Under the pieces are notes generated by a model. That model did no database searches. It worked only from the letters and a program-made list of their open reading frames with translations, and had not been told where the DNA came from. Below are positions 31,905 to 36,991 of a DNA stretch of 64,000 nucleotides, in pieces (position 1 is the stretch's first letter; every line of letters starts with the position of its first letter). The position numbers were made by a program, and so were the translations under genes. Source of the stretch: the human T2T-CHM13v2.0 reference genome, Homo sapiens; NCBI RefSeq assembly GCF_009914755.1, contig NC_060947.1, one strand, 5' to 3'.

Positions 31905-32402
31905 AGGGAATGGAAAACAATACAGTGGGTCCTCAAAAAATTAAAAATAGAATTACCATATGATCCAGCAATTCCATTTTTGAGTATATACTCTGAAGAA
32001 TTGAAAGCAGGGTCTCAAAGAGAGATTGGTATACCAGTGCTCACAGCAGTGTTATTCACAATGGCCAAAAGCCAGAAGCAACTCAAGTATCCGTTGACAT
32101 TTGAATGGATAAACAAAATGTGTTATGTATAGACAATGGAATATTATTCATTCTTAAAAAGGAAGAAAGTTCTGACACATGCTACAACATGGATGAACCT
32201 TGAGGACATTATGCTAAGTGAAATAAGCCAGTCACAAAAAGAGAAATACTGTATGATTCCACTCACATGAAGTACCTAGAGTAGTCTCATCCATAGAGAC
32301 AGAAAGTCGAGTGGTGATTGCCAGGGGCTGGAGGGAGGGAAGAATGAGGAGTTGTTTAATGGGTGCAGAGTTTTCAGTTTGGGAGGATGAAAAGAGTGCT
32401 GG
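31905..32402 (+). mobile_element. L1MB (MB3-like) 3' region, broken at the left arm of the inverted repeat
   Basis: aaaatagaattaccatatgatccagcaattcc..gaaccttgaggacattatgctaagtgaaataagccag..gatgaaaagagtgctgga, then ends abruptly. Confidence 0.85.
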
Positions 32403-34034
32403 ACATAAGCATCTTGATGGCAGGGACTGTGTCTTTTCAAAAATCCATGGGCTCTGTTTTATAGCACTTGATATTAAATAATCACCACCGAACATACACA
32501 GGCTAAGAACACTGAAGTGTTTAGAGAGAGAATTCACACAATCTTCCCAGACACCATATGACAAGTGACATAAAACATATTTACCTTTTAGTAATTCTAC
32601 TTCTGTGAATTCACTTTAAGGAAACGAGAGATGTGGAGACCGCATATGTACGCATTTTCTTCAAACTTAGGAGAAACTGGAAGGCCCCAAATAGGAGAAT
32701 GATTAAAAACTATCGCAAACTCCTAGGATGATCCAATAACATAACCATTTAAAAATCGTGTTTTTAGAGAATATTTAATGATGTGGAAAAATAGTCCTAA
32801 AGCTAAGTGAAAAAAAATCAAGATGCAAAACTATATGAAAGATTAAACAGTTATATAATCCAGCAGATTCAAGATAAATGAAAACATATGTCCATGCAAA
32901 AACTTGTACACAGGCCGGGTGTGGTGGCACATGCCTGTAATCCCAGCACTTTGGGAGGCCAAGGCAGGTGGATCACCTGAGGTCAGGAGTTCGAGACCAG
33001 GCTGGCCAACATGATGAAACCCTGTCTCTACTAAAAATACAAAAAGTAGCCGGGCGTGGTGGCACATGCCTGTAATCCTAGCTACTCAGGAGTCTGAGGC
33101 ACGAGAATCACTTGAACCCAGGAGGTGTAGATTGCAGTGAGCCAAGATTGCACCACTGCACTCCAGCATGGGTGACAGAGCGAGACTCCATCTCAAAAAA
33201 AAAAAAAAAAAAAACACACACACACTTGTACACAAATGTTCATAGCAGTATTATTCATAATAGCCAAAAATGGGAAATAATCAAAATGTCCATCAACTGA
33301 TGAATGGATAAATAAAATGTGGTTTATCCACACAACATAATATTATTCTGCCATGAAAAGGAATGAAGTACTGAAAATGCTACAACATGGATGAACCTTG
33401 AAAACGTTATGCTGAATAGAAGAAGCCAGATACAAAAGACCACATACTGTATGATTTTATTCACATGAAATGTCCAGACAGCAAATCTATACAGACAGAA
33501 AAAAGATTAGTTGTTGACTTGGTGGGGTGGGACAGAAGGGCAGTGGAGTGAAGAAAGAGGAGTGGCTGCTAAAGTGCAGGGATTTTCTTGGGGGGTGGTG
33601 GCACAGATAAATCTTCTAAAGTTGATTTATTTGTGGTGATGGGTTACACAACTGTGAATATACTAAAAGCCACTGAATTATACACTTTAGGGGAATTGTA
33701 TGGTATGTGAATTACATCTGAATAAAGGTGTTATTTAAAAATAGAATCTGGTCCAAATTTTACTTAAGAATTACATATGGAAAGACTGAAGAGATACCCA
33801 AAATTTTAAAGAGGGGCATTTTCTGAATGGTGAGATTTTAGGTAATTTTCATTTGTTCTTTTACTCTTTTCTGTATTTTCTGTGATGAGCATGCATTGTT
33901 TTCATAATCAGAAAAGTTATTGGTCTAATATAATTTCATGATAAACTGTATACATTTAAGATATACATACTGAAAAATGGTATGGTGAGAAATGAATCAA
34001 TCACCTTCTACCCACCTTCCCTCTGAAATGTGAA
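32403..34034 (+). repeat. Inverted duplication, left arm
   Basis: Reverse complement of 35361-36991. The first 135 bp are identical and the rest is diverged. The ORF track shows the same peptide on opposite strands (32232-32564 minus, 36788-37039 plus). Confidence 0.95.
32913..33214 (+). mobile_element. AluS specific to the left arm
   Basis: Flanked by acttgtacaca on both sides. Absent at the paralogous site in the right arm (~36152). Confidence 0.92.
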
Positions 34035-35021
34035 TATCGTCTCTTAAGAGTGGCTATATCACCTGTGGCTTTGCATTCAGATAAGTATTCATAATTGCCT
34101 CAGAAATCGATTACTGCATCTCAAACAGGTGCATCTCCCCTCAAACTTTATCCCCAAATATGAAGAGTTAAGTACCCTTACATAACCAAGATTCTGAGTC
34201 CTACATTTTTAACCACCAGAGGGAGCTGGAATGTAGAAAACCTGGGGCAGTCAGTTTTGTTTTGTTTTAAAGTTAGTTTCACAAAGGGCCATCAATTCAG
34301 GATCTTATGTAATTTTCCTAATTATTGTGAACCAGCACTTAAAAGATAATTCTTTTTTGCCTTTTTAAAATTCCACTTTTAAAGACTGCATACAGTAAAA
34401 GAGGTCTTCCTAAGAATCAAACTCTTAATAAACAACAGGCAAGACAGCACAGAAAAATAAAAAATATTCACACCCTCTATTAGCGAACATTTCTCTCAGA
34501 ATTGTCTGCTTCAGATCTTGAAGTCACGCAGTTGTGTCACAGTGATAAAGTTTCAAGTTATTCAATATACTTGAGCCCTCCCCGACTCGTTGAAAAGTTT
34601 CCTAACAAAGAAGAAACATTCAATGTGCCTGCATTCTATATGCATTACTATTGAAATCAGGATGGAGGTTTGCTAGGCATTGAGAAAGATGGTGAATAAG
34701 AGATGGGCCTACAGCGCCCAAAAGGAAGTTAAGCAATATTTGACTCAGGTCAGAATTTCTCAACTGAAGGTCTGAGTTTCAAGGTAATTCTTAAAGGGAA
34801 TTGTAATTATAGCTTCGGGGTTTCAGTGGGGTGAAAGCAGCAATTTGTCTTACCAGCAAAATGAGTAAATCTATAGAAGTTAATGTATTTATGTATAAAC
34901 AACCAAAAAGCACTTTGCTCTTCATTTTATATGTTCTTTTATTGACCTTTTCTTCATATTTCTTTAAAAAATTTTAATTGTGATAAAATATACAAAACAT
35001 AAAATTTACTGTGTTAAGCCC

Positions 35022-35315
35022 TTTTTTTTTTTTTTTTGACAGAGTCTCGCTCTGTCGCCAGGTTGGAGTGCAGTGGCATGATCTCGGCTCACCGCAAACT
35101 CTGCCTCCCGGGTTCAAGCAATTCTCCTGCCTCAGCCTTCCGAGTAGCTGGGACTACAGGTATGCGCCACTACATCCAGCTAACTTTTTGTATTTTTGGT
35201 GGAGACAAGGTTTCACCATGTTGGCCAGGATAGACTCGATCTCTTGACCTCATGATCCACCCACCTTGGCCTCCCAAAGTGCTGGGATTGCAGGTGTGAG
35301 CCACCACGCCCAGCC
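35022..35315 (-). mobile_element. AluS (Sc-like) inserted in an inverted L1MB tail
   Basis: Reverse Alu with TSD-like flanks ctgtgttaagcc / ctgtcttaagcc. Confidence 0.93.
35078..35159 (+). CDS. TCEANC: Alternative Alu-derived TCEANC coding exon portion (exon ~35043-35159), 30-aa N-terminal extension
   Basis: Acceptor (T)n-gacag (AG 35041-35042), ATG at 35078, donor CAG|GTATGC at 35160. Splicing to 37892 gives [35 protein letters not shown] in frame (381 aa). Confidence 0.7.
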
Positions 35316-35360
35316 TGTCTTAAGCCTTTTTAAGTATACAGTTCAGTAGTGTTATGTACA

Positions 35361-36991
35361 TTCTCGTTCCAGAGGGGAGGTGGGTAGAAGGTGATTGATT
35401 CATTGCTCATACCATTTTTCAGTAGGTATATCTTAAGTGCATATAGTTTATCATGAAATTGCGTTAGACCAATAACTTTTCTGATTATGAAAGCAATACA
35501 TGCTCATCACAGAAAATACAGAAGAGGAAAATAACAAATGAAAATTACCTAAAATCTTACCATTCAGAAAATGCCCCTCTTTAAAATTTTGTGTATCTCT
35601 TTTCAGTCTTTTCACATGTAATTCTTAAATAAAATTTGGATCAAATTCTATTTTTAAATAACACCTTTATTCAGATGTAATTCACACACCATACAGTTCA
35701 CCTAAAGTGTACAATTCAGTGTTTTTTAGTATACTCAGTTGTATAACCCATCACCACAAATAAATCTTGAGAAGATTTATGTGTGCCACCACCTCCCAAG
35801 AAAATCCCTGAACTTTATCAGCTGCTCCTCCTCCTTCACCCCACTGCCCTTCTGCCCTACCCTACCTAGTCAACAACTGATCTATTTTCTGTCTCTATAG
35901 ATTTGCCTGTTTTGGACATTTCATGTAAATAAAATCATACAATATGTGGACTTTTCTGTCTGGCTGCTTCTGCTCAGCATAATGTTTTCAAGGTTCATCC
36001 ATGTTGTAACTGTATCAATACTTCATTCCTTTTCATGGCAGAATAATATTCTGTTGTGTGGATAAATCACATTTTATTTATCCATTCATCAGTTGATGGA
36101 CATTTCGATTATTTCCCATTTTTGGCTATTGTGAATAATACTGCTATGAACATTTGTATACAAGTTTTTGTGTGGACATATGTTTTCATTTCTCTTGGAT
36201 CTGCTGGGTCATATGATAACTGGTTTATTCATTTATTTATTATTATTTTTTTTTAGACAGAGTCTTGCTGTGTTGCCCAGGCTGGAGTGCAGTGGCACGA
36301 TCTTGGCTCACTGCAAACTCCGCCTTCCAGGTTCATGCCATTCTCCTGCTTCAGCCTCCCAAGTAGCTAGGACTACAGGTGCCCGCCACCACACCCGGCT
36401 AATTTTTTGTATTTTTAGTAGAGATGGGGTTTCACCATGTTAGCCAGGATGGTCTCGATCTCCTGACCTCGTGATCTGCCTGCCTCAGCCTCCCAAAGTG
36501 CTGGGATTACAGGGTGAGTCACCATGCCCGGCCCATATGTTAACTGTTTAGTCTTTTATATAGTTTTACATCTTGATTGTTTTTCACCTAACTTTATGAC
36601 CATTTTTCCATGTCGTTAAATATTATCTAAATACATGATTTTTAAATGGTTATATTACTGTATCCTAGGAGTGTGCCATATTTTTAACCATTCTCCATTT
36701 AACCATTTGAGGGCCTTCTAATTTCTCCTTAGAAGAAAATTCTTACATATGCAGTCTCCACATCTCTCATTTCCTTAAAGTAAATTTATGGAAGTAGAAT
36801 TACTAAAAGGTCATTATGTTTTATGTCACTTGTCATATGGTGTCTGGGAAGACTGCGTGAATTCTCTCTCTAAACACTTCAGTGTTCTTAGCCTGTGTAT
36901 GTTCGGTGGTGATTATTTAATATCAAGTGCTATAAAACAGAGCCCATGGATTTTTGAAAAGACACAGTCCCTGCCATCAAGATGCTTATGT
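35361..36991 (-). repeat. Inverted duplication, right arm
   Basis: Reverse complement of 32403-34034. Confidence 0.95.
36233..36533 (-). mobile_element. AluY-like, specific to the right arm
   Basis: Flanks catatgataactg / catatgttaactg. Absent at the paralogous site in the left arm (~32855). Confidence 0.92.

What the first reader, a model, noticed from the sequence alone, without database searches (positions are those of the whole stretch)
31905..35365. Split L1MB indicates the spacer is inverted relative to the ancestral state
Seen: the plus-strand L1MB stops at ..gatgaaaagagtgctgga (32402), exactly where the left arm begins. An L1MB terminal tail lies on the minus strand at ~34965-35365, reading gaatgtacataacactactgaactgtatacttaaaaaggcttaagacag[Alu]taaattttatgttttgtatattttatcacaattaaaa, and abuts the right arm. 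From the recalled L1MB3 consensus this is the continuation, with ~25-30 bp lost. The left arm's inner end (aatgtgaat, 34027-34035) matches the L1 sequence at the junction, a candidate microhomology. Inference: either an inverted copy inserted into the L1 and the spacer was later flipped between the arms, or a single template-switch event made both the inversion and the duplication.
Basis: partly seen in the sequence, partly recalled or inferred. Interest (0 to 1): 0.7.

Follow-up and report, generated by a model that had tools for sequence, protein, structure and literature searches.

The report
Old inversion splits a LINE-1 fossil
In an intron of the human X-linked gene TCEANC, a dead LINE-1 element lies in two adjoining pieces that face opposite ways around a 1.3-kb inverted duplication, so the DNA between the two copies has been flipped, likely tens of millions of years ago; this is a well-preserved example of a known kind of rearrangement.

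Summary
Confirmed. Inverted arms at 32403-34035 and 35360-36991 (8.6% mismatch without their Alus) flank a 1,324-bp spacer. In 32 of 39 genomic relatives of the plus-strand L1 piece, the next sequence is the piece found here on the minus strand at the spacer's far end (0 of 39 in the control). The spacer is therefore inverted relative to the pre-duplication state. About 15-16 bp are probably lost; 28 bp is the alternative. Added here: the same 8-9-bp L1 motif marks both ends of the duplicated segment (P about 0.002 and 0.006), so both junctions were likely microhomology-guided. The L1 is about twice as diverged as each arm, and each arm carries its own later Alu. The outer 135 bp of the arms are identical (P=0.0006), which points to recent gene conversion. 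Slightly favoured history: break repair inserted an inverted local copy, and crossover between the arms later flipped the spacer (0.48). A single inversion-plus-duplication event is close behind (0.37). Only primate orthologues, not held here, can decide. Known class (delINVdup/dupINV shape); the locus was not found in the searches run.

The parts
31910..32403 (+). L1 3'-region piece A (L1MB-like, label recalled), cut off before its tail; 5' end approximate
   Evidence: alignments to the four relatives that cover it start at 31871-31978
32403..34035 (+). Left arm of the inverted duplication; likely the derived copy, since it sits inside the L1
32403..32537 (+). 135-bp block identical to 36857-36991; likely a recent gene-conversion tract (2 mismatches in the first 177 bp)
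   Evidence: (permutation P=0.0006)
32913..33214 (+). Alu in the left arm only, with target-site duplication; empty site in the right arm (AluSx-like, label recalled)
34027..34035 (+). 9-bp motif at the left arm's inner end, equal to the commonest L1 reading at the B junction
   Evidence: 13 of 39 copies exact, P=0.0017
34036..35359 (.). 1,324-bp single-copy spacer, inverted relative to the pre-duplication state
34968..35006 (-). L1 terminal tail (B2) ending in an A-rich run
35022..35315 (-). Alu inserted into the L1 tail (AluSc per the EASTR figure legend); holds the annotated TCEANC exon 35043-35159
   Evidence: hub annotation
35318..35368 (-). L1 piece B1, the continuation of piece A; its first 9 bp are the inner junction
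35360..36991 (-). Right arm; likely the ancestral copy
   Evidence: weak support from repeat continuity
36230..36535 (-). Alu in the right arm only, with target-site duplication (AluY per the EASTR legend); holds the questionable exon 36422-36513
36991..36998 (-). The same 8-bp L1 motif at the right arm's outer end
   Evidence: P=0.006; the 8-mer occurs 8 times on both strands of the window

Best explanation
An old L1 is split into two adjoining pieces on opposite strands around an inverted duplication; likely a break at an 8-9-bp motif in the L1 was repaired by copying in a 1.3-kb inverted neighbour bounded by the same motif, and a later crossover between the then-identical arms likely flipped the spacer. 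Shown: the split, the opposite strands, the motif at both ends of the duplicated segment, an L1 more diverged than the arms, separate Alus in each arm, and a perfect outer block. Inferred steps: (1) the ancestor read A, motif, B, spacer, right arm, flank; (2) one broken end primed at the inverted motif 1.3 kb away, copied the arm to the second motif copy and rejoined the other end; (3) about 22 bp (the 15 lost L1 bases plus most of the motif) went missing at the outer junction, then or later; (4) an odd number of crossovers between the arms left the spacer inverted; (5) the arms exchanged sequence again recently at their outer ends. No function is indicated. That the spacer is inverted relative to the ancestor has confidence of about 0.93; the score below is for this two-step route.
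For: Contiguity in 32 of 39 relatives against 0 of 39. Motif at both ends of the duplicated segment, P=0.0017 and 0.006; one break with two adjacent ends explains why both junctions fall at one L1 site (inference). The arms do recombine: a perfect 135-bp run, and 3 of 178 outer columns mismatched against 108 of 1,116 inner ones, P=7.5e-5. In one human genome survey, opposite-strand local duplications numbered 21, plus 6 with a deletion, while inversion with deletion and duplication was seen once (PMC5829575, Table 2 and section 33). [quoted passage not shown] L1 9.9% (54/548) from its relatives' majority against 4.8% (108/2,232) per arm, P=2.4e-5.
Against: It needs two or more events where one would do. 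The published toggling rates come mostly from repeats of 10 kb or more, and repeat length is the main driver, so 1.3-kb arms may flip rarely. The survey counts include short insertions and were not matched for size. The outer junction no longer carries the motif on the left, so an extra loss must be assumed. No trace of an intermediate exists in this genome: no third copy and no chrY homologue were found, and GRCh38 has the same 1,262-bp intron on the plus strand.
Confidence: 0.48

Rival explanations
1. One event made both the inversion and the duplication: a template switch or fold-back at the motif copied backwards through arm and spacer and switched back at the inverted motif, or a staggered pair of breaks was filled in and rejoined inverted.
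For: Most parsimonious; it predicts the same two junctions. The 9-bp inverted microhomology across a 1.3-kb spacer matches human fold-back junctions (spacers from 766 bp, 2-8 bp of microhomology; PMC3907307 passages). Inversions with an inverted duplication at only one breakpoint, up to about 1.9 kb, are common in Drosophila (PMC1885836 passages). delINVdup and dupINV are recognised human classes.
Against: Rarer than plain inverted-copy insertion in the survey read. Template switching gives no reason to return to the starting point (PMC5829575 section 46). Recent conversion shows the arms recombine, so the present orientation need not be the original one.
Confidence: 0.37
2. The duplication arose while the L1 was inserting (reverse transcription jumping to local DNA at the motif and back), and the spacer flipped later.
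For: It explains the use of one L1 position at both junctions. L1 insertions with local inversions or inverted duplications are documented (10.1101/2024.12.14.628481 passages).
Against: The L1 pieces are about twice as diverged as each arm (P=2.4e-5 all sites, P=0.008 transversions), so whole-arm homogenisation long afterwards would be needed. Caveat: subfamily mixing among the relatives inflates the L1 figure.
Confidence: 0.06
3. A and B are unrelated L1 insertions and nothing was inverted.
For: Piece A could not be assigned to the short or long variant (log-ratio +1.3, overlapping controls). No target-site duplication linking A's 5' flank to B's 3' flank was detectable (P=0.21 and 0.52). Repeat continuity across the right arm's outer end is weak.
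Against: A stops and B starts within 16-28 bp of each other on the family sequence, each exactly at an arm boundary. A has no tail, and B's two flanks do not resemble each other as those of an independent insertion would (sequence).
Confidence: 0.04

Closest known systems
delINVdup / dupINV complex structural variants (PMC5338099 passages; PMC5829575 section 33)
   Same: An inverted segment with an inverted duplication at one breakpoint and a small deletion at the other.
   Different: Those are present-day variants read against a reference. This one is old and is read from a split repeat; the deletion is only about 15-28 bp.
Opposite-strand non-tandem local duplication with deletion (PMC5829575 Table 2 and section 25) followed by recombination between inverted repeats
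   Same: An inverted local copy at a site with a small deletion; inverted repeats of over 200 bp on X.
   Different: The arms are now about 10% diverged and short; the locus was not found in the inversion lists searched.
Fold-back inverted duplications (PMC3907307)
   Same: A single-copy kb-sized spacer with inverted microhomology at its edge.
   Different: Those are megabase duplications next to terminal deletions or translocations; here the arm is 1.3 kb and the chromosome is intact on both sides.
Staggered-break inversions (PMC1885836)
   Same: An inverted duplication of up to about 1.9 kb of ancestrally single-copy sequence at one breakpoint.
   Different: Drosophila, large inversions joined by non-homologous end joining; here the spacer is 1.3 kb and both junctions show the same motif.

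Membership tests
delINVdup/dupINV-shaped rearrangement | A segment inverted relative to the ancestral state | tested here: met
   Split L1, 32 of 39 against 0 of 39; inferred from relatives of the repeat, not from an outgroup
delINVdup/dupINV-shaped rearrangement | Inverted duplication of single-copy flank at a breakpoint | tested here: met
   no third copy found
delINVdup/dupINV-shaped rearrangement | Deletion at the other breakpoint | tested here: met
   Gap modes of 16 and 28 bp; the short variant is favoured for B
delINVdup/dupINV-shaped rearrangement | All junctions formed in one mutational event | not testable with these tools
   Needs primate orthologues
Microhomology-mediated junctions (fold-back, template switch, templated insertion) | Microhomology above chance at the junctions | tested here: met
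   Inner 9 bp P=0.0017; outer 8 bp P=0.006, but the left outer junction has lost the motif
Inversion by recombination between inverted repeats | [quoted passage not shown] | tested here: met
   1,294 aligned columns
Inversion by recombination between inverted repeats | The repeats predate the inversion; both orientations exist in individuals or species | not testable with these tools
   Not found in the lists searched; one search was uninformative (file cut)
Inversion by recombination between inverted repeats | Evidence of exchange between the repeats | tested here: met
   135-bp perfect block, P=0.0006; a younger extension of the arm is not excluded
L1 insertion-time rearrangement (twin priming, template jump) | Rearrangement as old as the L1 | tested here: not met
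   9.9% against 4.8%, P=2.4e-5
L1MB subfamily identity of both pieces | Same RepeatMasker/Dfam subfamily | tested here: inconclusive
   No library held; B favours the short variant (+7.6), A is uninformative (+1.3)

The most novel reading that the evidence does not exclude
The arms, though about 10% diverged, still recombine through their 135-bp identical block, so the whole cassette toggles in living humans or between apes; a flip turns the spacer's antisense Alu to sense and removes the Alu-derived 5'-UTR exon of TCEANC, making this an uncatalogued inversion switch on an X-linked transcript.
Probability: 0.08. Interest if true: 0.55.

Novelty: new member of a known kind. Interest (0 to 1): 0.27.

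Why it matters
It is a clean fossil rearrangement whose ancestral state, both junction microhomologies and relative age can be read from one genome. It also suggests gene conversion between short inverted repeats that are already about 10% diverged. It frames the two Alu exons of the selected TCEANC transcript, one of which is published as likely spurious. No function is shown, and the class is known, so the interest is modest.

Tried and rejected
Outgroup inside the genome: DNA searches with arm, spacer, both junctions and the downstream flank and a protein search with TCEANC found no third copy and no chrY homologue; the DNA search is insensitive to diverged copies. Repeat spanning the left arm/spacer junction: none found. 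Continuity of an L2-like repeat (label recalled) across the right arm's outer end: of 46 motif matches, 2 are the arms and 40 of the other 44 were fetched. With all 40, the right flank scored P=0.04 against random sequence and 0.07 against shuffles, the left flank 0.96. With the 18 of 40 most mutually similar, the right flank was matched by 29 of 500 random and 19 of 500 shuffled sequences, the left by 98 of 500. This is suggestive only. Target-site duplication of the L1: not above chance. Subfamily classifier: 10 short and 21 long copies used, 8 of 39 left out as broken or intermediate; it does not separate the variants on piece A. Rate asymmetry between arms: 9 against 7 derived sites in 256 columns, none. 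Arm-arm RNA duplexes are predicted to be stable, as for any inverted repeat; not taken as evidence of function. Twin priming in the simple sense is rejected: the pieces are 2.9 kb apart with genomic DNA between them.

Full report
Anatomy. Self-comparison shows an inverted duplication with arms at 32403-34035 and 35360-36991 around a 1,324-bp spacer, inside TCEANC introns by the hub annotation. With the Alus removed the arms align over 1,294 columns with 111 mismatches (8.6%) and 15 gap events. Each arm has its own Alu at a different site, about 60 bp apart, with a target-site duplication and an empty site in the other arm, so the duplication predates both. No third copy and no chrY homologue were found.

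The split L1. The last 253 bp of piece A were searched against the window's own genome; 40 of 3,919 candidates were scored, and all 39 non-self matches were fetched. In 32 of 39, piece B (35330-35368, minus strand) follows directly on the same strand, against 0 of 39 in the reverse-complement control. A, B1 and the terminal tail B2 are collinear in 31 of 39. The gap is 13-16 bp in 10 copies, 19-25 in 4 and 27-30 in 18, reflecting two length variants. B carries the short variant's bases at three diagnostic columns and scores +7.6 bits for it, while A is uninformative at +1.3 (10 short and 21 long copies used, 8 left out). The likely loss is thus 15-16 bp. The pieces adjoin, do not overlap, lie on opposite strands and each ends at an arm boundary. 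The ancestral order was therefore most likely A, B, reversed spacer, right arm, flank (inference, about 0.93). Two independent checks added little: no L1 target-site duplication above chance (P=0.21 and 0.52), and only weak continuity of an older repeat across the right arm's outer end (P about 0.04-0.07).

Junctions. The 9-mer at 34027-34035 is the commonest reading of the L1 at B's start (13 of 39 copies exact); the right arm's version at 35360-35368 differs at 2 of 9 bases. Of 20,000 random window positions, 0.17% matched the lost L1 stretch over 9 or more bases, allowing a shift of 2 bases either way. New here: the first 8 bases of the same motif sit at 36991-36998 on the minus strand, at the right arm's outer end (0.63% by the same null). 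The 8-mer occurs 8 times on both strands of the window, and two of these bound the duplicated segment. Both junctions were therefore likely guided by one L1 motif. The left outer junction no longer shows it, which needs a further loss of about 22 bp (inference).

Age. Beyond the outer block the arms differ by 108 of 1,116 columns (K2P 10.4%), or 4.8% per arm. The L1 pieces differ from their relatives' majority base at 54 of 548 columns (9.9%; P=2.4e-5; transversions alone P=0.008); subfamily mixing may inflate this figure. The left-arm Alu differs from the majority of 65 Alus at 10 of 217 non-CpG, non-diagnostic columns (4.6%), not distinguishable from the per-arm value (P=0.86). The rearrangement therefore struck an already old L1 around or shortly before AluS activity. 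That is roughly 35-50 million years by recalled dates, probably in the simian stem; conversion would make this a lower bound.

Recent exchange. The outer 135 bp are identical (32403-32537 with 36857-36991). A run this long arose in 0.06% of 20,000 permutations, and the first 177 bp hold 2 mismatches. Gene conversion is the simplest reading; a younger extension of the arm is not excluded, though the motif at the outer edge argues that the junction is old.

Mechanism. The best reading is repair of a break at the motif by copying the neighbouring segment between two inverted motif copies into the L1, followed by an odd number of crossovers between the arms (0.48). It is favoured slightly because opposite-strand local duplications (21, plus 6 with deletion) far outnumbered inversion with deletion and duplication (1) in one survey (PMC5829575), because inverted-repeat inversions are common and recurrent ones are X-enriched, and because these arms appear to have recombined. 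Against it, short repeats toggle less and no intermediate is seen. A single template-switch, fold-back or staggered-break event gives the same sequence (0.37). Formation during L1 insertion (0.06) conflicts with the age gap. Unrelated fragments are unlikely (0.04).

What is known. The shape is that of delINVdup/dupINV variants. Searches for TCEANC with inversion, Alu or inverted, and for L1MB with inversion and inverted duplication (listings only, except EASTR) showed no description of this duplication. It was not found by coordinate-prefix searches in the 2005 human-chimpanzee inversion list (PMC1270012; hg17 position recalled) or in the supplements of PMC13629690. The supplements of PMC12350158 (file cut) and PMC9712629 (one file unsearched) were uninformative, and bioRxiv supplements, including the 729-inversion callset, were closed and may bear on this. 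EASTR (PMC10632439; passage and supplement passages) names the spacer Alu AluSc and the right-arm Alu AluY, and calls the intron between their exons likely spurious; in the passages seen it does not mention the inverted arms. Papers were read as passages or named sections, none in full.

Verdict. A real, well-supported fossil inversion with an inverted duplication; a new member of a known kind with no function shown. Interest 0.27.

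Noticed in passing
35160-36421: The intron between the two Alu-derived exons of the selected TCEANC transcript is published as likely spurious (EASTR); the same supplement mentions an Alu-Alu duplication variant in this region.
   Followed up: partly
32913-33214, 35022-35315, 36230-36535: The left-arm Alu is inverted relative to both exon-bearing Alus, so the pre-mRNA is predicted to form long duplexes that could be edited or affect splicing; untested.
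   Followed up: partly
32860-33735 and 35660-36210: Both arms contain a second, complete L1 3' end of a different subfamily (254 identities, 87 mismatches to piece A), apparently nested in an older L1-like fragment.
   Followed up: partly
35360-35368: The right junction keeps a CG where relatives show TG or CA, suggesting that the motif held a CpG at the time of the event.
   Followed up: partly
16953-18040, 49379-50466, 54526-55489, 58162-58864: Several 0.7-1.1-kb inverted matches of 92-98% identity, probably young L1 3' ends; 49379-50081 and 58162-58864 are 98% complementary and 8 kb apart.
   Followed up: no
L004, L007, L016, L018, L019, L021, L022, L024, L028, L045: Relatives of this L1 fall into a short variant lacking 12 bp near the 3' end and a long variant, with linked substitutions.
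   Followed up: partly
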